This document shows positions 11,395 through 25,064 of a stretch of 32,000 nt of DNA, piece after piece. The notes beneath the pieces were generated by a model. It was not told where the DNA came from and ran no database searches. It saw only the letters and a program-made list of their open reading frames with translations. The DNA comes from Ruminococcus albus 7 = DSM 20455 (GTDB lineage: Bacteria; Bacillota; Clostridia; Oscillospirales; Ruminococcaceae). A program made the translations under genes and the position numbers. Location of the stretch: positions 150,001 to 182,000 of the forward strand of contig NC_014833.1 of assembly GCF_000179635.2 (NCBI RefSeq). Reading direction: 5' to 3'. The first letter of the stretch is position 1, and each line of letters begins with the position of its first letter.

Positions 11395-11421
11395 TGATTA
11401 ATCTTGCTTGGGAGTGAAATA

Positions 11422-12132
11422 ATGAAGATCGCAGTATGTGATGACGAAAAGATGTTTCGTAATGAAGTTATCATTCTGCTTAATAAATATGCAGAAGAGA
11501 ATAATATTATCCTTGATATAACCGAATTTGATGACGGCGGGAAGGTCGTGGCTGCCAAGACGGTTTTTGATATGATATTTCTCGATCATCAGATGAATGA
11601 ACTGAACGGACTGGATACTATAAAACGTATACGTGAAAAAAATATAGATACGAAAGTTGTTTTTGTAAGCAGTTATTCAGAGATAGTATTTGACAGCATG
11701 AAATACAATGCATTCAGGTTCATAGTAAAGCCTGTTACAAAGGATAAGCTTTATGAGGCTATGGATGCTGCACTTGAAATCAGCAGCAGCGAGCGCAAGC
11801 TGATAGTAAAGGATGAAGAGTATAATGAGAGCATAGTGGTGTATGAAAAGGATGTTATATACGCGCAGGCGGACAATGTATATACATACATAATAACAGC
11901 GGAAGGCTCGTTCAGGTATCCTTACAATCTTTCAACGCTTGAAGAGGAGCTGGATTCGGGGGGGTTTTTCAGGACGAACAGGTCTTATATAGTAAATCTT
12001 GAGCATATAAATTCCTACGATAAGACGGGTATCACCTTATCGAACGGACATAAAGCTGTGATATCAAGATCAAAGTACAAGGATTTCAACAATTGTTATC
12101 TCAATTATTTAAAGAGATCTTCATCAAGATGA
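11422..12132 (+). CDS. LytTR-family response regulator (AgrA/ComE type)
   Basis: Track ORF is 11404..12132. The preferred start is ATG 11422 (MKIAVCDDE...) after GGGAG. The receiver domain includes MIFLDHQM, and the C-terminal LytTR domain includes FFRTNRSYIVNLEHI. Confidence 0.9.
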   Translation: MKIAVCDDEKMFRNEVIILLNKYAEENNIILDITEFDDGGKVVAAKTVFDMIFLDHQMNELNGLDTIKRIREKNIDTKVVFVSSYSEIVFDSMKYNAFRFIVKPVTKDKLYEAMDAALEISSSERKLIVKDEEYNESIVVYEKDVIYAQADNVYTYIITAEGSFRYPYNLSTLEEELDSGGFFRTNRSYIVNLEHINSYDKTGITLSNGHKAVISRSKYKDFNNCYLNYLKRSSSR

Positions 12133-12190: not shown

Positions 12191-13516
12191 ATGGAAATCG
12201 TATTAAAAAATGTTAGGTTTATATTATTTATATCCGTGTATATTTTATATTTTGTGAATATACATAAAAGTGTTAAGTTGATTTCGGATGATAATAAGTT
12301 CAGAAAAATCAGCTATGCTGTCGCGGGCTTACATATTATTTTGAAAATATTATTAGAAACTGTTCCTTTTTCAAAACAAGTAGGAGATGTTATATGGCGG
12401 ATGGGAGTACCATTGCTTTGTCTGTCAGTATTCCTTTCACACAAACAGCATCTATTAAAAACTGTTTATGTAACATTACTCTATTCATCTCTTGAAGCGA
12501 GTCTGGGAACAGTGATAAATATACTAATTGATGTCATTGTTCCGATAAAATACAGGGATTATAGTGGAGTAGCATTATACTTTTTATTAAATCTGGCATA
12601 TTATTTTATATTGACAAGATATCTGACGCAAAAGGCGGAAGATTTGAGGCTGAGTTTGGAATTTATTAATAGAAAAACATATATATTCATTCTTATATAT
12701 GCAAGGATACTTTCAAAACTAATATCAGTTACCAGAGCTGGAGAAAATATGAAATTTACAAGTGTGAAGCTGTTGTTCTATGTCAAATTATATATTATAC
12801 CTATCTGTATAATTTCAATGTTTATCATAATCCTTTTGATATCAAACAGTATGTCCAAATTCTACTATAAAAGGTCAGCGGAATTGCTGGACAAGCAGCT
12901 GGATATGCAGGCTAAGTATTACGAAAAAATCGATGAGATGACTACGGATATCAGGAAATTCAGGCACGATTATAAAAATCACATGCATTGTCTGAAGTCG
13001 CTGCTGGGCAGCAAGAAAATAGATGATGCGCTGGAGTATCTGGATTCCATATCCGCTAATCCAACTATGAACAAAACATCATTCAAAAGCGGCAATACCA
13101 TAGCCGATGCGATACTAAACGATAAGGCTGCAATAGCAGCACATGAGAATTTCAGGCTGAATTTCTCGTGAGTGATCTCGGAAAAAGTATCGGCATTCGA
13201 TATATGCACCATTCTTTCAAATGCACTGGATAATTCCATAGAAGCCTGTCGAAGGCTGAAAAGTGCAGAGGATAGGTATATAGACGTAAACTGCGTGCTT
13301 AAAAATGATATGCAGATGATATGTATATCAAATCCATCGGATACTGATGATCCGGATCTTAAAACTTCAAAGGATAATAAAAATGAGCATGGCTTTGGTC
13401 TTTATAATATAAAGAAGACAGTTGATTCACTGGATGGAACAGTGAATATCTCACAGACCTCGCCTGTATTCGTCCTGGATGTAATGTTCAGGATAAAAAT
13501 GCCTGAAACGGCGTGA
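12191..13516 (+). pseudogene. AgrC/HPK10-type sensor histidine kinase interrupted by an in-frame TGA
   Basis: Track ORFs 12191..13171 and 13172..13516 are in the same frame, separated only by TGA at 13169-13171. The N-terminal part is a polytopic membrane sensor. The H-box is FRHDYKNHMHCL, the N-box SNALDNSIEA and the G-box HGFGLYNIKK. The stop falls between the H-box and the N-box. Confidence 0.8.
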
Positions 13517-13537
13517 TTTCGGAATAAATAACATAAA

Positions 13538-13569
13538 ACAGCAGTATGTAAAAAGTACTGCTGTTTTTT
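13538..13569 (+). terminator. Rho-independent terminator after the kinase gene
   Basis: Stem CAGCAGTA / TACTGCTG followed by a T-run of 6. Confidence 0.8.
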
Positions 13570-13626
13570 ATTTTCATATCAAAATTACCATTCACAAAAA
13601 AAAACGGGGGCTTTACAAGAGATTTG

Positions 13627-13655
13627 TTGTTTTAACATGGCTTATACGCTATACT
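13627..13655 (+). promoter_or_regulatory. Candidate promoter of the maturase/precursor operon
   Basis: TTGTTT (13627-13632), 17-nt spacer, TATACT (13650-13655). The -35 box is weak, which is compatible with activator dependence. Confidence 0.35.
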
Positions 13656-13688
13656 ATGAGTGTACCAAGACGAAGGGAGGTCAGAGAG

Positions 13689-13721
13689 ATGGATGAATAC
13701 TACGGCTGGAAATGGCATTGA
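13689..13721 (+). CDS. 10-codon upstream sORF MDEYYGWKWH (function unknown)
   Basis: AAGGGAGG (13673-13680) lies 8 nt before ATG 13689, and the stop TGA is at 13719-13721. The sORF sits in the leader of the rSAM operon. Confidence 0.3.
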   Translation: MDEYYGWKWH

Positions 13722-13776: not shown

Positions 13777-15033
13777 ATGAGGAAATTTACAAAGAATCTG
13801 CTGTTCCTGCAGAATAAGGAGCAGGTGATAGTCGGCAACAAATGCGAATGTACTTTCCTGAAAATGAGCACAGAGTGCTACGATATACTGAACGGCTTTG
13901 TGAAGAGAGGTATAGGAAAGCATGAGTATGAAAAAATTTTTGAAGATAAAGAAGATAAGGAGTACTTCAGCGAGCTTCATGACAAGCTGGTTGAGAAAAA
14001 GATACTTGTTGATGTAAATGACAAGGAGCTCCTTACAGATTTCGATATACAGTGGGAAGTAACAAATCAGTGCAATCTGCACTGCAAGCACTGCATAGCA
14101 GATGCAGTTACTACCAAGACGCTGATAGCTGACAGAGATGAGATATATGCCATAGCCGATAAGATACTCGGCGTTAAGCCAAGGCTGATAACTGTCACTG
14201 GCGGTGAGCCTATGGTACTGCCGTTCTTCTTTGAACTCAGCGAGTACCTGAGAAAGAATACCCGCGGTGAGATGAACCTGATGACCAATGGCACTTACAT
14301 TACCGAAGAAAATGCAGCTAAGATAAAGGAACTTTATGATGCTGTATTCATAAGTGTTGACGGCTCGGATGAAAAGTCCTGCAGCGAGATAAGAGGAGCA
14401 GGGGTGTTTGGAAAGGTAATGGATGCCATCAAGTATCTGAAGGCGGCAGGAGTTAAGAATATATCCCTTTCCTTTGTACTTACAGCACAGAACAGAGAGC
14501 ATGAGAAGCCTTTCCTGAAGCTGTGCAGGGAGCTGGAAGTCAGCCCCATGGTGAGAACGTTTTCGCCCGTAGGAAGAGGCAAGGATCACAAGGACTGGTA
14601 TATCCAGGATGAATCGGTGGAAGACAATGATCCTGTTGATCCCGAGTTTGTAAAGAAGACAAAAGAGAACCAGCCTTACATCGAGTTTGGTGCCTGCGGC
14701 GGACGCTACGGTTCCTTTACGGTAAATGCAAAAGGAAATATGTTCCTGTGCGCACCCTATGAATGTTCCGAGAAACCTATCGGAAATATTCTCGAGGTTG
14801 ACGATATAAACAAGTATTTTTACGAAGAGGAATTCAGGAAAACAGAAAGCTATCTGAACTTTGAAAAGAAAATGCCTGAGAATTTCAAGAGATGTCAGGA
14901 GTGCAGTGTAAAGTACTTCTGCTGGCACTGTCCTTTCCTGTTCGAGCAGTCACTGAAAAACGAGAAGTCGTTTGATAACTACTGCAAGATCAGAAAAAAA
15001 GAGATCGGCTTTTCGCTTTGGGGTGAGATCTGA
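13777..15033 (+). CDS. Radical SAM/SPASM maturase with N-terminal RRE-like (PqqD-like) domain
   Basis: Track ORF is 13762..15033 with a GTG start; ATG 13777 (MRKFTKN...) is preferred. A pre-domain of about 95 aa precedes the CxxxCxxC motif (NQCNLHCKHC). The C-terminus is Cys-rich and SPASM-like (GACGG...LCAPYEC...CQECSVKYFCWHC). Confidence 0.9.
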   Translation: MRKFTKNLLFLQNKEQVIVGNKCECTFLKMSTECYDILNGFVKRGIGKHEYEKIFEDKEDKEYFSELHDKLVEKKILVDVNDKELLTDFDIQWEVTNQCNLHCKHCIADAVTTKTLIADRDEIYAIADKILGVKPRLITVTGGEPMVLPFFFELSEYLRKNTRGEMNLMTNGTYITEENAAKIKELYDAVFISVDGSDEKSCSEIRGAGVFGKVMDAIKYLKAAGVKNISLSFVLTAQNREHEKPFLKLCRELEVSPMVRTFSPVGRGKDHKDWYIQDESVEDNDPVDPEFVKKTKENQPYIEFGACGGRYGSFTVNAKGNMFLCAPYECSEKPIGNILEVDDINKYFYEEEFRKTESYLNFEKKMPENFKRCQECSVKYFCWHCPFLFEQSLKNEKSFDNYCKIRKKEIGFSLWGEI

Positions 15034-16037
15034 TGCACGTTGTATTTTGGACTACGAATGATTGCAACCTGAACTGCAGCTACTGCTACAACAGGATGAG
15101 CAATAATATAAAGAAAGAATATATGACCAGAGAGGTCGCAGATGCAGCGATAGATATGCTGACCAAGCTTGACTGCTGGAAAACTGCCGATGAGATCGCA
15201 GTACAGTTCCACGGCGGTGAGCCTCTCATGAATTGCGATATAATAGAGTATATCATGGAGCGTTTTGAAGCTCTGGTGCCTGCATCAAAGCTGTACTACG
15301 GAATGACTACCAACGGTACGCTCTATGATGACAGAAGAAAAAAGATAATCGATAAAATAAACGAACTATCGCTGAGCCTTGACGGCAAGGCGGAGATACA
15401 TGACCTGAACAGAAAGTTCGTAAGCGGCAAGGGTTCGTTTGATATCGTTATGGATACAGCCAGGGATATCAGCAAGAGAAAAGATGTCCGGCTGAGGATG
15501 ACTGTTACAAGAGATACTATCGGTGATCTTTGCGATACGGTCTGCTATTTCCTGGAGGAGGGTTTCAGACGGATAATACCCGTACTGGATATGTATGACT
15601 CTCACTGGAAGGACGAGGACGAGCCGATAATATTTGAGCAGTTCCGCAAGATAAAAGAATATATAGAAGAAAAAGACTATGGAGATGCCGTTATCTCGTA
15701 CGTTACCGAATCGGAATTTGTCCGCAAGGCAAAATGTACGGGCGGCGTGGAAAGTTTCCACTTCCTGCCTGACGGCAGCATCTATCCGTGTTCGTTGACA
15801 GTAGGTGACAGTTACTGGCTGCTGGGAAATGTGCTGGACACAGGGCTTGACAAAGCCAAGGTGGATGAGCTCCAGATGATAAACAACAAGGACACATCAA
15901 GCTGTACCGGCTGTGAGATGTATCACTACTGTGCAAGCTCAAGATGTAAACTTATAAATAAAAAGATAACAGGCGATTATTATACTGCCAGCAGTATAGC
16001 CTGTCTATGCAGCAGACTTGAATACGAGTTTGCTTAA
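15033..16037 (+). CDS. Second radical SAM/SPASM maturase (no RRE domain)
   Basis: The start overlaps the upstream stop (TGATG). The CxxxCxxC motif begins at residue 11 (NDCNLNCSYC). The C-terminal Cys cluster is KCTGG...YPCS...SSCTGCEMYHYCASSRC. Confidence 0.9.
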   Translation: MHVVFWTTNDCNLNCSYCYNRMSNNIKKEYMTREVADAAIDMLTKLDCWKTADEIAVQFHGGEPLMNCDIIEYIMERFEALVPASKLYYGMTTNGTLYDDRRKKIIDKINELSLSLDGKAEIHDLNRKFVSGKGSFDIVMDTARDISKRKDVRLRMTVTRDTIGDLCDTVCYFLEEGFRRIIPVLDMYDSHWKDEDEPIIFEQFRKIKEYIEEKDYGDAVISYVTESEFVRKAKCTGGVESFHFLPDGSIYPCSLTVGDSYWLLGNVLDTGLDKAKVDELQMINNKDTSSCTGCEMYHYCASSRCKLINKKITGDYYTASSIACLCSRLEYEFA

Positions 16038-16085
16038 AATCTGATATTTATACGCCGAAGCAGTCGATTTTAGGAGGATTTAATT

Positions 16086-16262
16086 ATGGAAATCAAGAAA
16101 ATCGACAATAAGGTAAAGCTCAATAACCAGAATGTAAAGGCTGAGAGAGACGAGTATGCTTGTCACCACGACTGCATCGAGTACTACTATTCCGGAAGCA
16201 CAGGCGCAAAGGGTTGCCGCAGAGGAAGCACTATTTCCGCTAAGACTACCCGCGCTTGGTAA
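16086..16262 (+). CDS. RiPP precursor A1 (58 aa)
   Basis: Not in the ORF track. AGGAGG lies 8 nt upstream. Sequence: MEIKKIDNKVKLNNQNVKAERDEYACHHDCIEYYYSGSTGAKGCRRGSTISAKTTRAW. Confidence 0.85.
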   Translation: MEIKKIDNKVKLNNQNVKAERDEYACHHDCIEYYYSGSTGAKGCRRGSTISAKTTRAW

Positions 16263-16348
16263 TCTTGGATCTTTTGGATAAAATACAAAAATCATAAGAA
16301 AACTATACGCACTAATACAATCTACATTTAATATAGGAGGATTTTACT

Positions 16349-16525
16349 ATGGAAATCAAGAAGATCAATGACAAGGTTAAGCTGAACGAAGAGAACGTAA
16401 AGGCAGAGAGAGACGAGTACGCTTGCCACCACGACTGCATCGAGTACTACTATACCGGAAGCACAGGCGCAAAGGGCTGCCGCAGAGGAAGCACTATTTC
16501 CGCTAAGACTACCCGCGCTTGGTAA
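16349..16525 (+). CDS. RiPP precursor A2 (58 aa)
   Basis: Not in the ORF track. AGGAGG RBS present. Sequence: MEIKKINDKVKLNEENVKAERDEYACHHDCIEYYYTGSTGAKGCRRGSTISAKTTRAW. Confidence 0.85.
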   Translation: MEIKKINDKVKLNEENVKAERDEYACHHDCIEYYYTGSTGAKGCRRGSTISAKTTRAW

Positions 16526-16611
16526 TCTTGGATCTTTTGGATAAAATACAAAAATCATAAGAAAACTATACGCACTAATACAATCTACATTTAATATAGG
16601 AGGATTTTACT

Positions 16612-16788
16612 ATGGAAATCAAGAAGATCAATGACAAGGTTAAGCTGAACGAAGAGAACGTAAAGGCAGAGAGAGACGAGTACGCTTGCCACCACGACTG
16701 CATCGAGTACTACTATTCCGGAAGCACAGGCGCAAAGGGCTGCTCCAGAAGAAGCACTATAACTGCTAAGACAACCCGCGCTTGGTAA
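16612..16788 (+). CDS. RiPP precursor A3 (58 aa)
   Basis: Not in the ORF track. AGGAGG RBS present. Sequence: MEIKKINDKVKLNEENVKAERDEYACHHDCIEYYYSGSTGAKGCSRRSTITAKTTRAW. Confidence 0.85.
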   Translation: MEIKKINDKVKLNEENVKAERDEYACHHDCIEYYYSGSTGAKGCSRRSTITAKTTRAW

Positions 16789-16919
16789 TCTTAGATCTTT
16801 GAATGCAATAATCATAAGAATACTATTCTAGCAATTCATAATAATACTATACGCACCAATACAATTTACTACTAATAACAAACAAAGTAATAATTTATAA
16901 AAAACAGGAGGATTTTATC

Positions 16920-17096
16920 ATGGAAATCAAAAAGATCAATGACAAGATTAAGCTGAACGAAGAGAATGTAAAGGCAGAGAGAGACGAGTACGCTTGCCAC
17001 CACGACTGCATCGAGTACTACTATACCGGTAGCACAGGTGCAAAGGGCTGCCGCAGAGGAAGCACTATTTCCGCTAAGACAACCCGTGCTTGGTAA
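16920..17096 (+). CDS. RiPP precursor A4 (58 aa)
   Basis: Not in the ORF track. AGGAGG RBS present. Sequence: MEIKKINDKIKLNEENVKAERDEYACHHDCIEYYYTGSTGAKGCRRGSTISAKTTRAW. The core is identical to A2. Confidence 0.85.
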   Translation: MEIKKINDKIKLNEENVKAERDEYACHHDCIEYYYTGSTGAKGCRRGSTISAKTTRAW

Positions 17097-17307
17097 TAAG
17101 CAGTCTGATTTAATGATGCGATAATATCGTATTAATGCAACAAAGCTACACTACAGTTTTATTATTCTGACACAGCAATAAAGTACTAATAACATAATCA
17201 AAAATCACAAACCGAAAAAATAACATTTTAAACAAGACTGCTTCGGTGTATTAAATATAAATATGGTAACAAACCAATATAAAATCTTATGAAAAGGAGT
17301 TGTTTTT

Positions 17308-17478
17308 ATGAAGGTACAGAAAATAACAGACAAAATCAAGCTCAGTGAGGAAAATGTAAAGGCTGAAGGCGGCGGCTGCCTTAAAGACTGTGCAGAGATA
17401 CAGTATACAGGCAAAAACTCAGCTAAGGGCTGCAGAAGGACCACAGTATATACAGCAAAGTACACTAATATGTGGTAA
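17308..17478 (+). CDS. RiPP precursor B1 (56 aa, divergent core)
   Basis: Not in the ORF track. AAGGAG lies 8 nt upstream. Sequence: MKVQKITDKIKLSEENVKAEGGGCLKDCAEIQYTGKNSAKGCRRTTVYTAKYTNMW. Confidence 0.8.
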   Translation: MKVQKITDKIKLSEENVKAEGGGCLKDCAEIQYTGKNSAKGCRRTTVYTAKYTNMW

Positions 17479-17506
17479 TGCAAAGCGTTGAAACGGAGAA
17501 AAAATC

Positions 17507-17686
17507 ATGGTGATCAAGAAGATCAAAGACAAGATAAAGCTTAGAGAAACAGTCAAGGCTGAAAGACTGGACCTTCAGGCTGACTTTATGCAGGACTGTG
17601 CTGAACAGACTTATGCGGGATATACCGCCAGAACAGGATGCAGAAGAAGAATGAATTACAGCGCAAAACTGTATTCAAGATTGTAA
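17507..17686 (+). CDS. RiPP precursor B2 (59 aa, divergent core)
   Basis: Not in the ORF track. GGAG lies 8 nt upstream. Sequence: MVIKKIKDKIKLRETVKAERLDLQADFMQDCAEQTYAGYTARTGCRRRMNYSAKLYSRL. Confidence 0.75.
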   Translation: MVIKKIKDKIKLRETVKAERLDLQADFMQDCAEQTYAGYTARTGCRRRMNYSAKLYSRL

Positions 17687-17729
17687 GCTTAAAGCAATTA
17701 TCTTATATTTCGACAGGAGGAAAAACAGC

Positions 17730-17897
17730 ATGAACATAAAGAAGCTTCTGGACAAAGTATTTGTAAAAGAGAATGTCAAAGCAGAAGGTATCTTTTCGGA
17801 TTTCAACTACGATTATGTCGGTTTTGATCCATGCAATAAGACCAACAAGATCAATCATAGGGAAAATATCACAGAGAAAAACAGAAAAAAGATTTGA
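17730..17897 (+). CDS. Leader-bearing peptide B3 (55 aa, single Cys, Lys-rich tail)
   Basis: Not in the ORF track. AGGAGG lies 9 nt upstream. Sequence: MNIKKLLDKVFVKENVKAEGIFSDFNYDYVGFDPCNKTNKINHRENITEKNRKKI. It shares the leader motif but not the core motif. Confidence 0.65.
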   Translation: MNIKKLLDKVFVKENVKAEGIFSDFNYDYVGFDPCNKTNKINHRENITEKNRKKI

Positions 17898-17929: not shown

Positions 17930-18919
17930 ATGAGAAAAGTTAAAGTTGCGATCATTGACAGCGGGATCAACTACAACATAGTTAATGACGATGTCAGAAA
18001 CTGCATAAAGACCGGATATTTAGTTCATGATGATGAAGCCAATACTGTTCAGGAGGTATCACCTTCCGAATTGTGTGATTTCAACGGGCATGGTACGGTA
18101 TGCGCTTCAATAGTAAACAGGATAGCGCCGGAAACGGAGATAATCCCTGTTTGTATATTGGGTAAGAACGGCAGATGCACTCCGGGCAAACTGGTAGCTG
18201 CACTGGAACTGGCCAAACGGCTCGATGTCCAGATCATCAATATGAGTCTCAGCTCAAATGATCTATTTATACGGCATAAACTGAAAAAGCTGACAAAGGA
18301 ACTTGAAGCGCAGGGAAAGATCTGTGTAGCTTCAAAGTCCAATGACAGACACATCAGTTTTCCGGCAGATTTTAAAAACGTTATAGGTGTTGTAGGCAGG
18401 ATCGACGTTTTTAATGACGGTTTTGAATACGACAGTCAGAAGAAGATACAGGTAACAGCCAGCGGAGCTACAGAGCTTATGGAATTCCATATGCCCGGTG
18501 CGAACTTCTTCAGAGGCAACAGCAGGGCGGCTGCGATATTCTCAGGCGTTCTTGCGGATGCTTACGCAAAAGGAAAGTTCAGCACAAAGGCAGAGGCGGA
18601 AGAGTATATGAGGTCTGAGTCCTGGGTGAGCGAAAAGTTTTACAGGTCTCCGGAGGATGATGAGAGCGATGAGAAGATCGTGAACAGGATCCTCACAAGA
18701 GTAAGTAAAATGATATCCGATGAGAGGATACGTGTTAAGCTCGCAGATGATCTTGAGCTGGTGTATACCAATTCTACTATCTATGATTATTACAAGATAA
18801 TCTATATGCTCGAAAATGAGTTTTCGTGCAGGATATTCGGCAAAGTCCCTGTATACAGGGTATATTTTCAGAAGATAAATTATCTCGGCAAACTGGTAAA
18901 GGAAGCACTCAATGAATAA
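17930..18919 (+). CDS. S8 (subtilisin-like) serine peptidase, no signal peptide; probable leader peptidase
   Basis: Catalytic blocks VAIIDSGIN (Asp), NGHGTVCAS (His), INMSLS (oxyanion Asn) and GNSRAAAIFSG (Ser). The N-terminus starts directly with the Asp block. A C-terminal extension of about 100 aa belongs to no family I recognise. Confidence 0.85.
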   Translation: MRKVKVAIIDSGINYNIVNDDVRNCIKTGYLVHDDEANTVQEVSPSELCDFNGHGTVCASIVNRIAPETEIIPVCILGKNGRCTPGKLVAALELAKRLDVQIINMSLSSNDLFIRHKLKKLTKELEAQGKICVASKSNDRHISFPADFKNVIGVVGRIDVFNDGFEYDSQKKIQVTASGATELMEFHMPGANFFRGNSRAAAIFSGVLADAYAKGKFSTKAEAEEYMRSESWVSEKFYRSPEDDESDEKIVNRILTRVSKMISDERIRVKLADDLELVYTNSTIYDYYKIIYMLENEFSCRIFGKVPVYRVYFQKINYLGKLVKEALNE

Positions 18920-20531
18920 TGAAATAAGGAAACTGCTCAGGATATGGAAACTTGACAGAATGAAGAAAGGTGTTTTCTTTACCCTGATGCTGATATCGGT
19001 GTTCTTGTCGATAGCCGTGCCAATGGTATTCGTTGACTTTGTAGATGTGGTCACGAAAGCGGCATCGATGAGTTCGCTGGTAAGATTGATAACAATATAT
19101 TTAGTACTTAACATTTCACAGATGTTTGTGGAGTTCGCGTTTGATTATTACTCATCCGTAAAGGAATTCGAGTTCGCACAGCATCTGAAATTTACAGCGC
19201 TGGACAGACTTTTCATGAAGGACGGAAGGTTCTTCGCCAATGAAAAGACGGGCGACCTTATGACGGTGGTAAATGATGATGCAGCAAAGCTGGCATCATT
19301 CGTATACAAAGCATACAAGGTGATCGTTTCACTGGTCCAGGCGATCGGCATAATGGGTGTCATGTTCTACTATGATGTGAAACTCACGCTGCTGCTGATC
19401 GTTATGATACCTATAACTCTGGCGGCTCAACAGAAGTTCGGAGATAAACTCAGGTATCTGGCGCTTGAGAACAGAAGAGATTACGGAGAGCAGAATGCTC
19501 TCACAGAGGAGTTCATATCAAATGCACCTGCGATGATAACATACGGTTTCCGCAGGAGCTTTCTCAACAAGTATGAACTTGCATCAGATGTGTTGAAAAG
19601 AAGCTTTAAAAAGCTCACACTGACAAATGGTTTTTCAAATCAGGCTATAGATATGATATCTACCATAAGCCTGATAGCGATAACTGCATTCGGCGGTTAT
19701 CAGGTATTTCAGAAGCAGATCTCAATGGGTGTAATGATAATATTCCTGCAGTACTGCACAAGGTTTATCGCACCGTTTGAGAACCTGGTATTCATGAAAG
19801 TAAGCTTTAATATGGTCATTCCTTCTCTTGACCACGTAGATGAAGTGCTGGGCGGAGATACTTGCGCAGACACTTCGGCAGGCAAGCAGATAGATGAGAT
19901 CGACAATATAAAGCTTGAAAATCTTACATTCGGGTACACCCGCGGAAAAAACATTCTCAACGGGCTGGATCTGGATTTTGAGAAGAACAAAAAATATTTG
20001 ATTTGCGGAAAAAGCGGTGCAGGCAAAACTACCATATTCAATCTGATCCTCGGATTGTGGCGGGCAACGTCGGGCAATATCTATATAAACGACGATGAGA
20101 TCGGCAGCATAGATCTTGAATCATTCAGGGACAGGATCTCACTGGTCTCGCAGAAAACGTTCTTCCTGCATGATACGATATATAATAATCTGACCAATGG
20201 AAGGGATATACCGGAAGAAAAGGTATGGGAAGCTCTGCGGTGTGTTGAACTTGACGATTTTGTCAGGGGCATGGAAAATGGTTTGGATACCATACTGGGT
20301 GATGATGGTATGACAATGTCCGGAGGACAGAGGCAGAGACTGGCAATAGCACGTTCAATGCTGAAACGATCGGATGTGGTAATATTCGATGAGCCGACTT
20401 CGGCACTTGATAAGAATACAGAGAAGATAATTGCGCGTTCCATAATGGGTATAAAGGATAAGATAATAATCATCGTATCCCACAGCAATTGTTTTTCGGA
20501 TCAGGTCGATCAGATATACAAGATCGGATAA
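18912..20531 (+). CDS. ABC exporter, fused permease-ATPase (no C39 peptidase domain)
   Basis: 539 aa. The N-terminal half is a 6-TM domain. Walker A is GKSGAGKTT, the signature MSGGQRQR and Walker B VVIFDEPTSALD. The start overlaps the peptidase gene by 8 nt. Confidence 0.9.
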   Translation: MNNEIRKLLRIWKLDRMKKGVFFTLMLISVFLSIAVPMVFVDFVDVVTKAASMSSLVRLITIYLVLNISQMFVEFAFDYYSSVKEFEFAQHLKFTALDRLFMKDGRFFANEKTGDLMTVVNDDAAKLASFVYKAYKVIVSLVQAIGIMGVMFYYDVKLTLLLIVMIPITLAAQQKFGDKLRYLALENRRDYGEQNALTEEFISNAPAMITYGFRRSFLNKYELASDVLKRSFKKLTLTNGFSNQAIDMISTISLIAITAFGGYQVFQKQISMGVMIIFLQYCTRFIAPFENLVFMKVSFNMVIPSLDHVDEVLGGDTCADTSAGKQIDEIDNIKLENLTFGYTRGKNILNGLDLDFEKNKKYLICGKSGAGKTTIFNLILGLWRATSGNIYINDDEIGSIDLESFRDRISLVSQKTFFLHDTIYNNLTNGRDIPEEKVWEALRCVELDDFVRGMENGLDTILGDDGMTMSGGQRQRLAIARSMLKRSDVVIFDEPTSALDKNTEKIIARSIMGIKDKIIIIVSHSNCFSDQVDQIYKIG

Positions 20532-20596: not shown

Positions 20597-20650
20597 ATAT
20601 AATGTTTGCCATGACATGATGAAAATATATGATAAGGAACGGTGATAGTA

Positions 20651-21310
20651 ATGGTAATTCAAACTCACGATCTGTGTAAGTATTACGGTGATGAAAGCAA
20701 TATGGTGAAGGCTCTTGACAAGGTGAACCTGAGCGTTGACAAGGGTGAACTGATAGGCATAATCGGCAAGTCGGGCAGCGGTAAGTCAACGCTGCTGAAT
20801 ATGCTGGGTGCGCTCGATCATCCCACGGGAGGAAGCATCATTATCGGCGGAGAGGATATCTCCAAGATGAACGATGAGCAGCTGACAAAGATGCGTCGTT
20901 CAAAGATCGGCTTCATTTTCCAGAACTACAATCTTATACCCGTACTGAATGTATACGAGAACATAGTTCTGCCTATACAGCTTGACGGAAAGAAGCCCAA
21001 CAATAAGTATATCGATACTATACTTGATGCACTGGAGATCTCACACAAGAAAAATTCTCTGCCTTCCTCCATGTCCGGCGGACAGCAGCAGAGAGTTGCC
21101 ATAGCAAGAGCTCTGGCAAACAAGCCCGAGATAGTTCTGGCTGATGAGCCTACGGGAAATCTCGATGAAGCTATGGGCGCAGAGGTAGTTGATATGCTCA
21201 AATTCATGAATAAGGAGTTTGACCAGACTATCATTGTAGTAACACACGATCAGGAAGTTGCATCACAGATGAACAGAGTGATTAGAGTAGTTGATGGGAG
21301 AGTGCAGTAA
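20651..21310 (+). CDS. ABC transporter ATP-binding protein (MacB/LolD/BceA-like)
   Basis: Track ORF is 20642..21310 with a GTG start; ATG 20651 is preferred. Walker A is GKSGSGKST, the signature MSGGQQQRVAIAR, Walker B IVLADEPTGNLD and the H-loop VVTHD. Confidence 0.9.
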   Translation: MVIQTHDLCKYYGDESNMVKALDKVNLSVDKGELIGIIGKSGSGKSTLLNMLGALDHPTGGSIIIGGEDISKMNDEQLTKMRRSKIGFIFQNYNLIPVLNVYENIVLPIQLDGKKPNNKYIDTILDALEISHKKNSLPSSMSGGQQQRVAIARALANKPEIVLADEPTGNLDEAMGAEVVDMLKFMNKEFDQTIIVVTHDQEVASQMNRVIRVVDGRVQ

Positions 21311-23773
21311 ATGATCAGAAAACTCGCGTTCAGGTCACTTATGGCAGAAAAGTTCAGATGTGTCTGTACTGTTATCGCCATGATACTGACTGCTCTGCTG
21401 TTTTCAACGCTGTTTACTACGGCGGCAGGGCTAAACAATGCCAATACCTATTATGAATTCAAAAAGCTGGGAACCACTGCCCATGTTATAGTAAAGGACT
21501 GGGACAAGGGCTATGGCAAAGAATTTGAAGCTATCAGGGGTCACGGACTTGTAAAAAAAGCAGGTTACCGCAGATTTTTGGGATATGCAGTAAACAGCGG
21601 TATCAAATACAATGTTGAAGTCAGCTACATGGGCGCAGATGAGGCAGAGCTTGACTACTACACACCCACAAGCGGAAAACTCCCCGTTGAAGCAAACGAG
21701 ATAGCTGTCGATACGACTACTCTTGCTGCACTTGGCGTGGAGAAGAAGGTAGGCACACCCGTCAGCATCGACCTTGATGTAAGCGGCAAGACCGTTACCG
21801 AGGAATTCGTGCTTTCGGGCTGGTTCGAGATAAACAAGGCTTATTCTGTAAAGATAGGTCAGATAATAACCTCCGAAAAATACAGCGATATCTGGGACAG
21901 CAAGTTTGAAACCGACACCGTGAACGGAACGAGCGATGTATCAATTCTGCTGAGTGATGGCTATGATATCGAAGGTGAAACAGAGCAGATTTTCAATGAT
22001 GTTGGTCTTGCATATTCTCAGGATATCATATCTGTGAATCCCGGTTATAATGTCAGCAGTGAAACGATGTCAAGCGAAACAATGGTTACCCTGATAGTAG
22101 GTATACTCGTTATCGTACTTATCGGTTATCTTATCATCAACAACATTTTCTATATCTCGGCAAGAAAAGATGCAAAGCAGTTCGGCAGACTGAAGACTAT
22201 CGGTATGTCAAACAAACATCTGGCAGCCTTTGTAAGGACTCAGGCATTTATAATGCTTGCTGTCGCAGTTCCCCTTGGTATAGTAGGCGGATATTTTATG
22301 GGCAAACTTATACTGCCTGCGATACTGCGCCAGACTGCCTATGATTCTGTCGCTGATGATACAGTCATATCAGGCGGAGTTATCGCCCTGATACTTGCAG
22401 CAGCAGCGCTGTTCGTTGTGATAACTACACTGGTAAGTATAAACGGACCTATAAGAATGATAAAGAAGCTTTCGCCTATCGAATCGACAAGGATAGAGCT
22501 CAAGGGCTATAAGAGCACAAGAAAATCAAGCGACGGCAGCAAGACCCACAAATTTGCAAAATATAACATCCTGCGCAACAAGAAGAGCCTTGCGATGCTG
22601 CTCGTAAGCATATCACTTCCCGTACTGCTGGTAATAGTTTCATACGATGCACTCAACAGCTTTGATATGGATAAGTACCTTTCGACTATACTCGCATCTG
22701 ATTACACTGTAGCATCATCGGATTATTACAAGAATGACTATATCGACAATGAAAACAATGTAAAGACACTTGATGCATCGGTAGTTGAAGAGATAAAAAA
22801 CTGCGGTTTTGTAGAAGAAGGTTCGATAGTATACGGTGATATGGCTAATGAATATGCAAGTGTAAAGGAGATTCAGATCCCGGAGGGCGATGTGTATACA
22901 CTTGACCTTTATGGTTCAGAAGAATTTACAATTGATAAGTCGCTTATCATCGAGGACAATATCGACATGGCAAAATTCAAGGACGGTACAGGTATCGTTG
23001 AGGGCTGCTGGCTGACATCCGAGGGAGAGATCTACCCCGGTACAAGTCAATTCAACCAGGGCGACACTGTTACTATAACAGGTGCAGACGGAAAAGAGCA
23101 TACCTATACAGTCTTAGGTCACATGAATGTTGCTCTTGGTGCCAAAAAGACAGGTATATCAAAAGGCGGCATCACCTGCGAGCTTTATATGAATACTGCG
23201 CAGTATGAGCAGGTAACAGGCAATCAGAACATAATGTCCTATGAATTCAACGTAAAGAACGGCATGGAAAAGGAAGCTGAAAAATACATCAAGGGCATGA
23301 CAGAGGCTGATAGCTCAATAAATTATCAGTCTAAATATTCTCTTGCCGCTGATTTTGCATCAATGAAGCTTCTGGTAAAACTGATATGCACTCTGCTGTG
23401 CGTGGTGCTTACATTTATCGCTGTAATGAATCTTATCAACGTATTTGTATCAAGTATAATGGTAAGAGAAAAGGAGATTGCGACACTGAAGAGCATCGGC
23501 ATGACGAGAGGTCAGCTGAGAAAGATGCTGTTCTGGGAAATATTCTACTACAACGGCACAGCGTTTATAATAGCAGCTGTACTTTCGCTGGTACTGTCGC
23601 CAACGGTTTTCAAAAGCGTTTTCAACGAATTCCCGTTCCTGACCTTCCGTATGAACTGGATGTCATACCCTGCGATAATAGTAGTTATAATGTTTGTAGG
23701 TATAATGACTGTTATATGTGTTGAGAACAGGATATCTAAAATGAACATCCCCGAAGAATTAAAGACTGCGTAA
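21311..23773 (+). CDS. FtsX-family ABC permease with two FtsX modules (BceB/MacB-like); candidate self-immunity
   Basis: 820 aa. The start immediately follows the ATPase stop. Two TM clusters each carry the FtsX signature (...ARKDAKQFGRLKTIGMSNKHL... and ...VREKEIATLKSIGMTRGQLRKML...), separated by large soluble loops. Confidence 0.85.
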   Translation: MIRKLAFRSLMAEKFRCVCTVIAMILTALLFSTLFTTAAGLNNANTYYEFKKLGTTAHVIVKDWDKGYGKEFEAIRGHGLVKKAGYRRFLGYAVNSGIKYNVEVSYMGADEAELDYYTPTSGKLPVEANEIAVDTTTLAALGVEKKVGTPVSIDLDVSGKTVTEEFVLSGWFEINKAYSVKIGQIITSEKYSDIWDSKFETDTVNGTSDVSILLSDGYDIEGETEQIFNDVGLAYSQDIISVNPGYNVSSETMSSETMVTLIVGILVIVLIGYLIINNIFYISARKDAKQFGRLKTIGMSNKHLAAFVRTQAFIMLAVAVPLGIVGGYFMGKLILPAILRQTAYDSVADDTVISGGVIALILAAAALFVVITTLVSINGPIRMIKKLSPIESTRIELKGYKSTRKSSDGSKTHKFAKYNILRNKKSLAMLLVSISLPVLLVIVSYDALNSFDMDKYLSTILASDYTVASSDYYKNDYIDNENNVKTLDASVVEEIKNCGFVEEGSIVYGDMANEYASVKEIQIPEGDVYTLDLYGSEEFTIDKSLIIEDNIDMAKFKDGTGIVEGCWLTSEGEIYPGTSQFNQGDTVTITGADGKEHTYTVLGHMNVALGAKKTGISKGGITCELYMNTAQYEQVTGNQNIMSYEFNVKNGMEKEAEKYIKGMTEADSSINYQSKYSLAADFASMKLLVKLICTLLCVVLTFIAVMNLINVFVSSIMVREKEIATLKSIGMTRGQLRKMLFWEIFYYNGTAFIIAAVLSLVLSPTVFKSVFNEFPFLTFRMNWMSYPAIIVVIMFVGIMTVICVENRISKMNIPEELKTA

Positions 23774-23805
23774 TGAATAACTTCGCTGCGTGATATAATG
23801 ATCGT

Positions 23806-23845
23806 AACATCGGCTTTGCTGTAAAGGCAGAGCCGATGTTGTTTT
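23806..23845 (+). terminator. Rho-independent terminator ending the RiPP cluster
   Basis: 10-bp perfect stem AACATCGGCT / AGCCGATGTT followed by GTTTT. Confidence 0.8.
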
Positions 23846-24215
23846 ATGTGTGAAAGACTGGAAAGGCAATATATTAATATTGTTAATTATTTACTCAAAA
23901 TAACGTCTTTGAGCATAACTGACATAACTTTCGGTTAATAATAGTAAAAATTGTAAAAATGTATGTAAAAGACTTGAATTATATTTGGTTTTGAGGTATG
24001 ATAATAGTATAAAAAATATTATGATTGTCCCGCTGGCATACCTTATAAAATGGTGTTATATCCAAACTTGAAATACTTGGCAGTTATCTTTTCCCCCGCC
24101 TGCGGCGGAAGGAAGATAACATTAACACAATGTTTCATTGTTATATATCGCTTTGTAGTGGTGTGTTAAAGGGATAGCCGGTAAAAATTAACAGTAAAGG
24201 GAGGGGGTGAGTGGT

Positions 24216-25022
24216 ATGTACAGAGCAGCAGGAAAAAAAGTTCGTTCGGATAACGGCTCAGAGGGCAGACGTAAAGCAGGGCTCATAAGAGCAGCGATCG
24301 GTTTCGGTTTTGTGCTGGTCATGTTCGCATTTATCACTCTCTCCTGGTTCACATTCAGCAAGCAGCTTGAAGCAGGTGGGATATTCATAAAGACAAGTGA
24401 TCCTTCCATTGATTGTACTGCGACTTCATACTACTATATCCGTTCGCAGGGAAACACGTATGCTCCGCAGGAGGGAACGGAAGATAATATATTTAAACTT
24501 ATGCAGTATGACTCGTTATTCGGCGGCAATAACACACATACCTATGTGGTGGAACGTATGGAGCTGACAGCATCGGATCTTCCCGAGAACGGAACACTGA
24601 ATTTTACTATAGAGCGTGAGACCTCGCAGGCATCTGATATGCCGGGCTCGGACTATATATCAAGTGTTACGTGTTATACCTTTGTGACACTGCCGACATT
24701 CCCGACAACTTCGGGTGCTATACTCAGCGCTGTTAACGCGGCAGCGGCGGATACCGACTTTGTGACCCGGACATTTGTCGTAAATGATGAAAAGGCGGAT
24801 ATGATAACGTTCAGTGTGCCATATACTTCCGAAAACTGGACGGACGGTAAACTATATATTTATTTACATATTGATTATGATGAAACACTCATCACGGAAT
24901 ATATCGATAAGTCACTGCGCAACCTGCTGAAGAACAACGGCAGCAACGGGCAGGTCGATGTGGAATACGGTGCGGATGTTACGATGCAGAATGATATTCA
25001 ACGGATCGTGATCTCCCGTTGA
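24216..25022 (+). CDS. Secreted or anchored hypothetical protein with TasA/SipW-type N-terminus
   Basis: Track ORF is 24207..25022 with a GTG start; ATG 24216 is preferred, 9 nt after AAGGGAGGGGG. A basic N-terminus is followed by a hydrophobic helix (AAIGFGFVLVMFAFITL) and then SWFTFSKQ. Confidence 0.6.
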   Translation: MYRAAGKKVRSDNGSEGRRKAGLIRAAIGFGFVLVMFAFITLSWFTFSKQLEAGGIFIKTSDPSIDCTATSYYYIRSQGNTYAPQEGTEDNIFKLMQYDSLFGGNNTHTYVVERMELTASDLPENGTLNFTIERETSQASDMPGSDYISSVTCYTFVTLPTFPTTSGAILSAVNAAAADTDFVTRTFVVNDEKADMITFSVPYTSENWTDGKLYIYLHIDYDETLITEYIDKSLRNLLKNNGSNGQVDVEYGADVTMQNDIQRIVISR

Positions 25023-25064
25023 TCCTGATGAGTACTGATAACATATAACGGGGAGGTGTACGAT

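What the first reader, a model, noticed from the sequence alone, without database searches (positions are those of the whole stretch)
16086..17897. Seven precursor genes invisible in the ORF track; the track shows only their antisense shadows
The track lists minus-strand ORFs 16080..16295, 16328..16558, 16591..16815 and 17205..17483 in this region. Reading the plus strand instead gives seven ORFs of 55-59 codons.
- Each ORF has a canonical SD (AGGAGG, AAGGAG or GGAG) 8-9 nt before its ATG.
- All seven are co-directional with the maturases.
- All share the leader motif (I/V)KK(I/L).DK(V/I)(K/F)(L/V).E.(N/T)VKAE(R/G).

The minus-strand ORFs have no SD and a low-complexity composition typical of antisense reading.
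Basis: seen in the sequence. Interest (0 to 1): 0.95.

Follow-up and report, generated by a model that had tools for sequence, protein, structure and literature searches.

The report
Seven small peptide-precursor genes, confirmed
The seven short plus-strand genes are real and almost certainly encode precursors of a modified, probably antimicrobial, peptide in Ruminococcus albus 7, but they were hidden only by a 60-residue ORF cut-off and are already in GenBank as hypothetical proteins.

Summary
Seven plus-strand ORFs of 55-59 codons lie at exactly the stated coordinates, each with an SD 8-9 nt upstream. The four minus-strand ORFs are antisense shadows. Substitutions preserve the plus frame (pN/pS 0.15-0.30) and not the antisense frame (0.83-1.39). 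The antisense frame carries stops in relatives. Codon usage favours the plus strand.

The genes were "invisible" only because the ORF list stops at 60 aa. The window is R. albus 7, and the peptides are GenBank ADU20723-ADU20729, annotated "hypothetical protein".

They sit in a conserved operon: RRE-bearing radical-SAM/SPASM enzyme, PapB/CteB-like radical-SAM/SPASM enzyme, precursors, cytoplasmic S8 protease, ABC exporter, then MacB/FtsX-type ABC. An AgrC-like kinase and a LytTR regulator lie upstream. The same architecture, with 1-8 homologous precursors, occurs in Ruminococcus, Lachnospiraceae and, more distantly, Paenibacillus.

The peptide family is rare, has no Pfam or NCBIfam model, and I found no characterisation. 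It shares a leader ending VKAE and a core C-x-x-D-C...G-C. The likely product is a thioether-cross-linked RiPP, so this is a new member of a known kind.

Two side findings. An unannotated, Trp-rich mini-ORF of 9-12 codons heads the operon and varies together with the kinase sensor domain. The kinase carries a nonsense codon in strain 7.

The parts
11404..12132 (+). LytTR-type response regulator
   Evidence: Pfam Response_reg plus LytTR. The ORF start is a TTG from the ORF listing; relatives are called at 236 aa.
12191..13516 (+). AgrC-like (HPK10-type) sensor histidine kinase, interrupted by an in-frame TGA at 13169-13171
   Evidence: Pfam SPOB_a plus HATPase_c_5, with a weak AgrC hit. There are several hydrophobic segments in residues 1-218 and a FRHDYKN His box. 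The codon is TGA here where relatives have GGA (Gly).
13535..13567 (+). Terminator-like hairpin after the kinase gene
   Evidence: Stem of 13 pairs followed by a T run.
13591..13618 (+). Candidate LytTR box: direct repeats TTCACAA and TTTACAA, 21 nt start to start
   Evidence: It is the only exact match to the pattern in the window and is invariant in six lineages. Its function is inferred.
13627..13655 (+). Candidate promoter: -35 TTGTTT, 17-nt spacer, -10 TATACT
   Evidence: Read from the sequence. The block is conserved across lineages. Not tested.
13689..13721 (+). Unannotated mini-ORF MDEYYGWKWH*, with invariant SD GGGAGGT at 13675-13681
   Evidence: An ORF of 9-12 codons is present in every Ruminococcus version of the cluster. 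Its sequence varies but is 26% Trp, and it differs whenever the kinase sensor differs.
13777..15033 (+). Radical-SAM/SPASM maturase 1 (418 aa) with an N-terminal RRE-like domain
   Evidence: Pfam Radical_SAM plus SPASM. CX3CX2C at residues 99-106 and seven conserved SPASM cysteines. AlphaFold model with pLDDT 87 has four strands and three helices at residues 1-73. Best PDB fold matches are CteB, SkfB and SuiB. Weak best NCBIfam hits are MftC and StsB.
15033..16037 (+). Radical-SAM/SPASM maturase 2 (334 aa) with no N-terminal domain; its start overlaps the stop of maturase 1
   Evidence: CX3CX2C at residues 11-18 and a full SPASM cysteine set. Best NCBIfam hit is PapB at 177 bits, below the 340-bit cut-off. 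Best PDB sequence hit is CteB 5WGG at E 2e-33.
16086..16262 (+). Precursor A1 (58 aa, 3 Cys)
   Evidence: GenBank ADU20723.1.
16349..16525 (+). Precursor A2 (58 aa, 3 Cys); its 5' part resembles A3 and its 3' part resembles A1
   Evidence: GenBank ADU20724.1.
16612..16788 (+). Precursor A3 (58 aa, 3 Cys)
   Evidence: GenBank ADU20725.1.
16920..17096 (+). Precursor A4 (58 aa, 3 Cys)
   Evidence: By elimination it corresponds to cluster member ADU20726.1.
17308..17478 (+). Precursor A5 (56 aa, 3 Cys), the most divergent core among orthologues
   Evidence: GenBank ADU20727.1.
17507..17686 (+). Precursor A6 (59 aa, 2 Cys; Phe replaces the first Cys)
   Evidence: GenBank ADU20728.1.
17730..17897 (+). 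Precursor-like A7 (55 aa): same leader, different core GIFSDFNYDYVGF plus a basic tail, and no conserved Cys
   Evidence: pN/pS is 0.13-0.17. GenBank ADU20729.1.
17930..18919 (+). Subtilisin-like S8 protease, probably cytoplasmic; the presumed leader peptidase
   Evidence: Pfam Peptidase_S8. QhpE-like at 99.7 bits, below the 165-bit cut-off. Triad motifs DSG at 10, HGT at 54 and GNSRA at 196. No hydrophobic segment.
18912..20531 (+). ABC exporter (fused permease and ATPase, no peptidase domain)
   Evidence: Pfam ABC_membrane plus ABC_tran.
20642..23773 (+). MacB/FtsX-type ABC pair (ATPase 20642-21310, permease 21311-23773); presumed self-protection
   Evidence: Pfam ABC_tran and FtsX. The ATPase matches LolD-, DarD- and MacB-like models. 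Conserved in all related loci. A terminator-like hairpin follows at 23804-23842.
16080..16815 (-). Three antisense shadow ORFs (16080-16295, 16328-16558, 16591-16815); not genes
   Evidence: No SD and codon log-odds near 0. pN/pS is 0.83. The frame is broken in relatives.
17205..17483 (-). Antisense shadow ORF over A5 and its upstream spacer; not a gene
   Evidence: No SD and codon log-odds of -21.5 bits.

Best explanation
The seven plus-strand ORFs are genuine genes. They encode the precursor peptides of a ribosomally synthesised, post-translationally modified peptide (RiPP) system on the Ruminococcus albus 7 chromosome.

Each precursor has a leader of about 20 residues (M-x-I-K-K-I-x-x-K-V/I-K-L-...-N-V-K-A-E) and a core of about 36 residues. 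In A1-A5 the core carries three conserved cysteines and an invariant aspartate (C-x-x-D-C ... G-C-R-R ... A-K-x-T-x-x-W).

Proposed mechanism (inferred, not shown):
1. The leader is bound by the RRE domain of radical-SAM/SPASM enzyme 1.
2. The two translationally coupled radical-SAM/SPASM enzymes install intramolecular cross-links. These are most likely Cys thioethers. The PapB/CteB-like enzyme 2 would probably link a Cys sulfur to a side-chain carbon such as C-beta of the invariant Asp. Enzyme 1 (MftC/StsB clade) would make a second type of link.
3. The cytoplasmic S8 protease removes the leader at or just after VKAE.
4. The ABC exporter secretes the products.
5. The MacB/FtsX-type ABC pair protects the producer.
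6. The AgrC-like kinase and LytTR regulator switch the operon on at a conserved promoter upstream of enzyme 1.

The four near-identical copies A1-A4 come from recent tandem duplication of a 263-bp unit, so they raise dosage more than diversity. A5-A7 are older, diverged paralogues. The minus-strand ORFs are accidental open antisense frames.
For: Coding strand (shown):
- SD sites lie 8-9 nt upstream of all seven plus ORFs and of none of the minus ORFs.
- Of 29 variable sites among A1-A4, 18 fall at codon position 3, 10 at position 1 and 1 at position 2.
- Nei-Gojobori pN/pS is 0.15 in the plus frame and 0.83 in the antisense ORF frame.
- Across 12 orthologue pairs the pooled values are 0.30 and 1.39, and A7 gives 0.13-0.17.
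- The antisense frame has 1-5 stops in distant relatives.
- Codon log-odds favour the plus strand.

Precursor role (strongly supported by context):
- The order rSAM (about 420 aa), rSAM (about 335 aa), precursor(s), S8, ABC exporter, ABC ATPase, FtsX is conserved in R. albus AR67 and KH2T6, Ruminococcus MAGs, Lachnotalea glycerini, Butyrivibrio sp. MC2013, Lachnospiraceae MAGs and an ICE-like context. These loci carry 1-8 homologous precursors.
- A remote version in Paenibacillus (enzymes about 35% identical) keeps the leader type and the C-x-x-D-C ... G-C core.
- The leader and C26, D29, C30 and G43-C44 are at least 90% conserved over 28 family members.

Enzymes:
- Both have CX3CX2C plus a full SPASM cysteine set, invariant across homologues.
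- The enzyme 1 model (pLDDT 87) has an N-terminal fold of four strands and three helices. Over its full length it matches the RRE-containing RiPP maturases CteB, SkfB and SuiB.
- Enzyme 2 is closest to PapB (NCBIfam) and to CteB (PDB).
- PapB links Cys to Asp C-beta and tolerates spacings from CX0D to CX6D (PMC9413430), so the C-x-x-D spacing here is compatible.

Protease: the S8 has its catalytic motifs and no hydrophobic segment.
Against: No chemistry has been observed. The type, number and topology of the cross-links are inference.

Both enzymes score far below the curated cut-offs of every named maturase family: PapB 177 against 340 bits, StsB 94 against 625, RumMC 72 against 720.

A7 has no conserved Cys, and A6 lacks the first Cys, so not all seven can carry the same cross-link set.

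The sensor kinase has a nonsense codon in this strain, so the operon may be poorly induced in R. albus 7.

Antimicrobial activity is only inferred from the ABC/FtsX module. No expression data were available.
Confidence: 0.88

Rival explanations
1. The annotated-looking minus-strand ORFs (71-92 aa) are the real genes, and the plus-strand ORFs are their shadows.
For: They are longer and pass the 60-aa threshold. The antisense frame is open across A1-A4 and A7.
Against: They have no SD, and their codon log-odds range from about 0 to -21 bits. pN/pS in that frame is 0.83-1.39. The frame carries 1-5 stops in relatives in which the plus-strand peptide is conserved. Their translations are Leu/Ser/Val-rich and matched no family. 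Gene callers never call them in related loci.
Confidence: 0.01
2. The seven peptides are real but are exported essentially unmodified, as leader-containing class II-like bacteriocins or signals. The radical-SAM enzymes act on something else, for example only on A7 or on the mini-ORF peptide.
For: No chemistry was observed. Both enzymes fall below all family cut-offs.
Against: Loci with a single canonical precursor, and no A7 or mini-ORF, still keep both enzymes directly upstream of it. Three Cys and one Asp are conserved at 90% or more over deep divergence, which is typical of cross-link donors and acceptors. Enzyme 1 carries an RRE-like leader-binding domain.
Confidence: 0.05
3. The modified peptides are not antibiotics but signalling molecules, that is, quorum-sensing RiPPs sensed by the AgrC-like kinase.
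For: An HPK10/LytTR pair is adjacent. A published survey notes that ranthipeptides generally lack well-characterised antimicrobial activity (PMC13289728).
Against: A dedicated MacB/FtsX-type ABC pair is conserved in every locus. In Paenibacillus it sits next to a HisKA/OmpR-type two-component system, an arrangement I associate from general knowledge with peptide-antibiotic resistance modules. Lachnotalea and the ICE-like locus have the cluster with no two-component system among the called neighbouring genes. The kinase sensor differs (48% identity) between loci whose A1-A7 peptides are identical, so those peptides are unlikely to be its specific ligand.
Confidence: 0.12
4. The peptides are QhpC-like cross-linked subunits of a quinohemoprotein amine dehydrogenase-type enzyme, not secreted RiPPs.
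For: The S8 protease is QhpE-like (99.7 bits) and enzyme 2 hits the QhpD model (111 bits).
Against: Both scores are below the cut-offs of 165 and 453 bits. No QhpA or QhpB homologues appear in the window. There are seven tandem copies and a dedicated exporter.
Confidence: 0.01

Closest known systems
Freyrasin (PapA/PapB) and thermocellin/SCIFF (CteA/CteB) ranthipeptides
   Same: A radical-SAM/SPASM enzyme cross-links Cys residues of a leader-containing precursor. Enzyme 2 has PapB as its best NCBIfam hit and CteB as its best PDB hit. The core has an invariant Asp three residues after a Cys. PapB links Cys to Asp C-beta and accepts spacings from CX0D to CX6D (PMC9413430).
   Different: Scores are below family cut-offs (177 against 340 bits; SCIFF maturase 142 against 425). 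The precursors match no SCIFF or other model. There is one C-x-x-D-C motif plus a distal G-C, not six CX3D repeats. A second, RRE-bearing radical-SAM enzyme is always present, and enzyme 2 itself has no N-terminal domain.
Thuricin CD (TrnA/TrnB with TrnC/TrnD) and ruminococcin C (RumC1-5 with RumMc1/RumMc2) sactipeptide loci
   Same: Clusters with two radical-SAM maturases and several paralogous precursors, plus a protease, an ABC transporter and (for RumC) a two-component system. This comparison rests on my own knowledge and on the thuricin CD description in PMC4289311.
   Different: No sequence relationship among the precursors. The RumMC model scores 72 against a 720-bit cut-off. Here the two enzymes belong to different clades and one lacks an RRE, so they are not two similar paralogues.
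StsA/StsB sactipeptide system and the MftC clade
   Same: Enzyme 1 aligns over nearly its full length to the StsB model and to MftC. StsB is a sactisynthase that lies in an MftC-like sequence clade (PMC10288494).
   Different: It scores 94 bits against a 625-bit cut-off. In the Sts system the RRE is a separate protein, StsC. Here the RRE-like domain is fused to the enzyme.
QhpC/QhpD/QhpE (quinohemoprotein amine dehydrogenase maturation)
   Same: A radical-SAM thioether former combined with a cytoplasmic subtilisin-like leader protease (the functions of QhpD and QhpE are from my own knowledge).
   Different: No dehydrogenase subunits are present, the peptides have their own exporter, and both scores are below cut-off.
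Peptide-pheromone three-component systems (agr, comCDE, blp, pln) with specificity groups
   Same: An HPK10-type kinase and a LytTR regulator sit next to a bacteriocin locus. A hypervariable kinase sensor domain is paired with a hypervariable short peptide gene in otherwise near-identical loci.
   Different: The candidate signal is a leaderless ORF of 9-12 codons with no Cys, no double-glycine leader and no AgrB. It lies downstream of the kinase at the head of the biosynthetic operon. Its function is untested.

Membership tests
RiPP precursor of a radical-SAM/SPASM (sacti-/ranthipeptide-type) cluster | Small ORF adjacent to, and co-directional with, a radical-SAM/SPASM maturase, conserved in synteny | tested here: met
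RiPP precursor of a radical-SAM/SPASM (sacti-/ranthipeptide-type) cluster | Two-part peptide: a conserved leader and a core with conserved Cys donors | tested here: met
   The leader, C26, D29, C30 and G43-C44 are at least 90% conserved in 28 sequences. A6 has 2 Cys and A7 has none conserved.
RiPP precursor of a radical-SAM/SPASM (sacti-/ranthipeptide-type) cluster | Maturase with a leader-binding RRE domain | tested here: met
   The enzyme 1 model has four strands and three helices at residues 1-73 with pLDDT above 90, and matches CteB, SkfB and SuiB over its full length. No Pfam PqqD hit was found.
RiPP precursor of a radical-SAM/SPASM (sacti-/ranthipeptide-type) cluster | Thioether cross-link, and whether it goes to C-alpha (sacti) or to C-beta/C-gamma (ranthi) | not testable with these tools
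   Needs MS/MS and NMR of the modified peptide.
SCIFF (six-Cys-in-forty-five) ranthipeptide precursors | Match to the SCIFF precursor model | tested here: not met
   No NCBIfam or Pfam family at E up to 1-10 for any of the peptides scanned.
PapB family ranthipeptide maturase (NF047865) | Score at or above the curated 340-bit cut-off | tested here: not met
   177.4 bits. It is the best hit but is below the cut-off.
StsB family sactipeptide maturase (NF045574) and MftC (TIGR03962) | Score at or above the curated cut-off (625 and 265 bits) | tested here: not met
   93.6 and 94.1 bits for enzyme 1.
RumMC family (ruminococcin C) maturase (NF035951) | Score at or above the curated 720-bit cut-off | tested here: not met
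   72 bits, N-terminal part only.
Qhp maturation system | QhpE or QhpD at cut-off, together with QhpA and QhpB subunits | tested here: not met
   QhpE 99.7 against 165 bits and QhpD 111 against 453 bits. No dehydrogenase genes were found.
HPK10/LytTR peptide quorum-sensing module | Multi-pass membrane sensor, HATPase_c_5 kinase with an FRHDYxN His box, and a LytTR regulator | tested here: met
   The kinase is truncated by TGA in this strain.
HPK10/LytTR peptide quorum-sensing module | A cognate secreted peptide gene that co-varies with the sensor domain | tested here: inconclusive
   The mini-ORF and the sensor form two separate divergent islands in otherwise 98-100% identical loci. Graded covariation over 7 loci is weak: Mantel r is 0.45 with p 0.04, and the cytoplasmic half correlates about as well.

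The most novel reading that the evidence does not exclude
The operon is headed by an eighth, unannotated gene: a leaderless, Trp-rich ORF of 9-12 codons (MDEYYGWKWH in this window). It encodes the specificity-determining peptide signal of the AgrC-like kinase, giving R. albus pherotypes, that is, agr-like specificity groups with matched signal and receptor. The seven precursors are then matured by two different radical-SAM enzymes into a hybrid cross-linked peptide whose topology has not been described. That would be a new kind of pheromone (no leader, no AgrB, no Cys) controlling a new RiPP family in a major rumen fibre degrader.
Probability: 0.3. Interest if true: 0.7.

Novelty: new member of a known kind. 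Interest (0 to 1): 0.4.

Why it matters
For annotation practice, this is a clean example of a fixed ORF-length threshold hiding the key genes of a biosynthetic cluster while showing their antisense shadows.

For biology, the cluster defines a small RiPP family for which I found no characterisation. Only 14 clusters at 50% identity turned up among 1.8 billion representative proteins. It has a conserved C-x-x-D-C...G-C core and an obligatory pair of dissimilar radical-SAM enzymes. It occurs in rumen and gut Clostridia, including the model cellulolytic organism R. albus 7.

It is a practical target for finding a new thioether topology or a narrow-spectrum rumen antimicrobial.

The nonsense codon in the strain 7 kinase warns that the type strain may not express the cluster.

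The mini-ORF and kinase-sensor polymorphism gives a directly testable hypothesis of pherotypes in Ruminococcus.

Tried and rejected
- Pfam and NCBIfam scans of the seven peptides found no family. The only hit was a chance DUF5814 match at E 0.04.
- Rfam over the whole window found nothing.
- PLSDB plasmids gave no match. The locus is chromosomal in R. albus 7.
- Literature searches by peptide strings, accession numbers and organism plus radical SAM found no paper that describes the peptides.
  - One genome-mining table lists an R. albus 7 radical-SAM gene, Rumal_0164, as a putative sactipeptide locus (PMC4289311). I could not verify that this locus tag lies in this cluster.
  - The 2026 Hungate1000 bacteriocin survey does not mention AR67, KH2T6 or MC2013 in its main text, and the supplement passages I retrieved list no region on the contigs that carry this cluster.
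- A7 as the inducer peptide is not supported by co-occurrence. Butyrivibrio has the two-component system without an A7-type gene, and A7 is identical in loci whose kinase sensors differ.
- The mini-ORF as a transcription-attenuation leader is not supported. There is no terminator-like site and no stable fold between it and enzyme 1 (z = +1.4).
- A seed-based search for direct repeats in the four intergenic regions found nothing. The candidate LytTR box was seen only by eye in an alignment and has no second copy elsewhere in the window.
- Graded covariation between the mini-ORF and the sensor domain was weak.
Full report
OBSERVATION

The region 16086-17897 contains seven plus-strand ORFs at exactly the coordinates implied by the finding: A1 16086-16262, A2 16349-16525, A3 16612-16788, A4 16920-17096 (58 aa each), A5 17308-17478 (56 aa), A6 17507-17686 (59 aa) and A7 17730-17897 (55 aa). 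Each has an SD upstream: AGGAGG for A1-A4 and A7, AAGGAG for A5 and GGAG for A6, at 8 nt (9 nt for A7). The 20 nt upstream of each of the four minus-strand ORFs contain no such site.

The "invisibility" is simply that 55-59 aa is below 60 aa.

The shared leader is real. Invariant columns are M1, K5, K9, V17-K18-A19-E20, D29 and K53. The written motif is a little too strict for A1, A5, A6 and A7.

WHICH STRAND CODES

- Among A1-A4 there are 29 variable sites: 18 at plus-frame codon position 3, 10 at position 1 and 1 at position 2.
- Because the antisense ORF frame pairs its position 2 with plus position 2, I also computed Nei-Gojobori counts. pN/pS is 0.15 in the plus frame and 0.83 in the antisense ORF frame.
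- Over twelve orthologue pairs between the window and related loci, covering all seven types, the pooled values are 0.30 (plus) and 1.39 (antisense). A7 alone gives 0.13-0.17.
- The antisense frame is open in only 20 of 41 distinct family genes. It carries 1-5 stops in the more distant relatives, where the plus-strand peptide is conserved.
- Codon-usage log-odds, trained on the long Pfam-supported genes of the window, are +15 to +28 bits for A1-A7 and -21 to +1 bits for the minus ORFs.

The minus ORFs are antisense shadows.

SOURCE AND ANNOTATION STATUS

Exact-sequence look-up places the window on the 3,685,408-bp Ruminococcus albus 7 (ATCC 27210 / DSM 20455) chromosome. The peptides are GenBank ADU20723.1-ADU20729.1 (WP_013496915-WP_013496921, UniProt E6UCD1-E6UCD7), all named "hypothetical protein". 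Gene callers also call the homologues in every related contig.

A 2014 genome-mining paper lists an R. albus 7 radical-SAM gene, Rumal_0164, among putative sactipeptide clusters without further description (PMC4289311). It is probably this locus, but I could not verify the locus-tag mapping. I found no paper that describes the peptides.

CONTEXT

Upstream lie a LytTR response regulator (11404-12132) and an AgrC-like kinase (12191-13516), followed by a terminator-like hairpin.

The operon then reads:
- radical-SAM/SPASM enzyme 1 (13777-15033, 418 aa);
- radical-SAM/SPASM enzyme 2 (15033-16037, 334 aa), whose start overlaps the stop of enzyme 1;
- A1-A7;
- an S8 protease (17930-18919) with DSG, HGT and GNSRA motifs and no hydrophobic segment;
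- an ABC exporter without a peptidase domain (18912-20531);
- a MacB/FtsX-type ABC pair (20642-23773), ending in a strong terminator-like hairpin.

Both enzymes have CX3CX2C and a complete SPASM cysteine set, invariant among homologues.

Enzyme 2 starts directly with the radical-SAM motif at residue 11. It is closest to PapB (177 bits, cut-off 340) and to CteB (PDB 5WGG, E 2e-33).

Enzyme 1 has an extra 95 N-terminal residues. An AlphaFold model (pLDDT 87) folds them as four strands plus three helices. Over its full length the model is closest to the RRE-containing RiPP maturases CteB, SkfB and SuiB. By sequence its weak best hits are MftC and StsB.

FAMILY AND DISTRIBUTION

A profile of the peptides searched against 1.84 billion representative proteins finds only 14 clusters. 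Thirteen are peptides of 51-76 aa with the same leader and core, and one is a weak match to a 703-aa protein.

The same gene order occurs in R. albus AR67 (7 precursors) and KH2T6 (6). It also occurs in Ruminococcus MAGs with 2 or 5 precursors. Lachnotalea glycerini, Butyrivibrio sp. MC2013, Lachnospiraceae and Lachnoclostridium MAGs and an ICE-like context each carry one.

A remote version, with enzymes about 35% identical, exists in Paenibacillus and in one unassigned read-archive (Logan) contig. Its precursors keep the pattern K-I-K-K-I...V-K-G-Q/E then C-x-x-D-C...G/S-C.

Over 28 members the positions C26, D29, C30 and G43-C44 are at least 90% conserved. No Pfam or NCBIfam model covers the peptides.

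MECHANISM

Shown:
- the genes are coding;
- they are leader-plus-core peptides;
- they are tied by synteny to two SPASM enzymes, a protease and transporters.

Inferred:
- the enzyme 1 RRE binds the leader;
- the two enzymes install Cys-derived cross-links;
- the S8 protease cuts at or after VKAE in the cytoplasm;
- the exporter secretes the product;
- the ABC/FtsX pair gives immunity;
- the two-component system induces the operon.

The invariant Asp three residues after the first Cys, next to a PapB-like enzyme, makes a Cys-to-Asp side-chain thioether the most likely single link. PapB makes Cys-Asp C-beta links and tolerates CX0D to CX6D spacing (PMC9413430). The chemistry itself cannot be tested here.

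A1-A3 form a 263-bp tandem repeat of 2.8 copies at 94% identity. Copy number of the canonical 58-aa gene ranges from 1 to 5 among near-identical loci, though assembly collapse is possible.

A7 keeps the leader but has a different conserved core (GIFSD-x-N-x-DYV-x-F plus a basic tail) with no conserved Cys. It is under purifying selection and is retained even in a two-precursor locus. Its role is open.

SIDE FINDINGS

1. Kinase nonsense codon. The kinase has TGA at 13169-13171 where relatives have GGA. The same stop appears in an independent assembly carrying the same peptides and the same stop (GCA_000621285.1, possibly the same strain) and in one read-archive contig. Five metagenomic relatives have the intact codon. 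The stop is therefore unlikely to be a sequencing error and is so far seen only in these three assemblies.

2. Conserved upstream block. The 130 nt upstream of enzyme 1 are almost invariant across six lineages. They contain direct repeats TTCACAA and TTTACAA 21 nt apart (13591-13618), a plausible promoter, and a perfect SD (GGGAGGT).

3. Mini-ORF. That SD is followed by an ORF of 9-12 codons that no gene caller reports: MDEYYGWKWH in the window.
   - Other lineages have MWNYGWGGH, MWERIWGKGGGH, MWELIWGKGHGH, MWEFGWGKGH, MKDEKGWPWWF or MKEDFWNWWL.
   - Trp makes up 26% of residues against 0.9% in the window's proteins (P about 1e-14).
   - Two loci that are 98-100% identical in nucleotide sequence elsewhere differ in just two separate islands. 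One is the kinase sensor domain (57-76% nt, 48% aa). The other is the mini-ORF region (67% nt). The kinase cytoplasmic half and the promoter between them are 93-99% identical.
   - Identical mini-ORFs always go with identical sensors.
   - This resembles agr/com/blp specificity groups and suggests that the mini-ORF encodes the kinase's ligand.
   - Graded covariation over seven loci is weak. No attenuator structure is present. The idea remains untested.

VERDICT

The finding is correct as an observation and as an interpretation, but it is less remarkable than claimed. The genes are missed only because of a length threshold, they are already in public annotation, and the cluster belongs to a well-known kind (radical-SAM/SPASM RiPPs with multiple precursors). 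What is new is the specific peptide family, which I found uncharacterised, the obligatory pairing of two dissimilar radical-SAM enzymes, and the candidate pheromone mini-ORF.

Noticed in passing
window 13675-13721 (SD 13675-13681, ORF 13689-13721): An unannotated mini-ORF of 10 codons (MDEYYGWKWH) lies behind an invariant SD at the head of the biosynthetic operon. Every Ruminococcus version of the cluster has one (9-12 codons, 26% Trp, variable sequence). It differs whenever the kinase sensor domain differs, in loci that are otherwise 98-100% identical.
   Followed up: partly
window 13169-13171: An in-frame TGA splits the AgrC-like kinase between its dimerisation and ATPase parts. Relatives have GGA. 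The stop is also present in GCA_000621285.1 and in an SRR4055043 contig, but not in five metagenomic relatives. The cluster may be uninducible in the type strain.
   Followed up: yes
window 13591-13655: A conserved block holds direct repeats TTCACAA and TTTACAA 21 nt apart (a candidate LytTR box) and a candidate promoter (TTGTTT, 17 nt, TATACT). It is invariant in six lineages whose proteins are as little as 75% identical.
   Followed up: partly
window 16071-16800; L030-L037: A1-A3 form a 263-bp tandem repeat. A2 looks like a chimera of the A3 5' part and the A1 3' part. Near-identical loci carry 1-5 canonical copies, and L032 has 8 precursors in all. This may be real copy-number variation by unequal crossing-over, or assembly collapse.
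   Followed up: partly
window 17507-17897 compared with L005 4015-4388: In this lineage both A6 and A7 have Phe where their orthologues in a more distant Ruminococcus locus have the first conserved Cys (DFMQDC against DCLHDC, and SDFNYDY against SDCNNDY). That is two Cys/Phe differences at the same core position.
   Followed up: no
L027 (Paenibacillus, CP152006.1) and L029: A remote version of the whole cluster has a different but recognisably related precursor (…EVKGQGCKDDCADWSGK…AGC…). Locus L014 places the cluster next to topoisomerase, ArdC and YodL genes, which suggests carriage on a conjugative element.
   Followed up: partly
window 4132-6978 (minus strand): An IS66-family element whose transposase is broken into several ORFs. 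IS66 Orf2 (TnpB) and an HTH transposase fragment are intact alongside it.
   Followed up: no
window 1799-4135 and 7031-8302 (minus strand): Two DUF285 / BspA-type leucine-rich-repeat proteins flank the IS66 element.
   Followed up: no
window 24207-31395: Three ORFs lie downstream of the cluster: 271 aa, 1383 aa and 503 aa. None has a significant Pfam hit; the 503-aa ORF has only a faint RHS-repeat match. Relatives KH2T6 and AR67 have different genes in this position.
   Followed up: no
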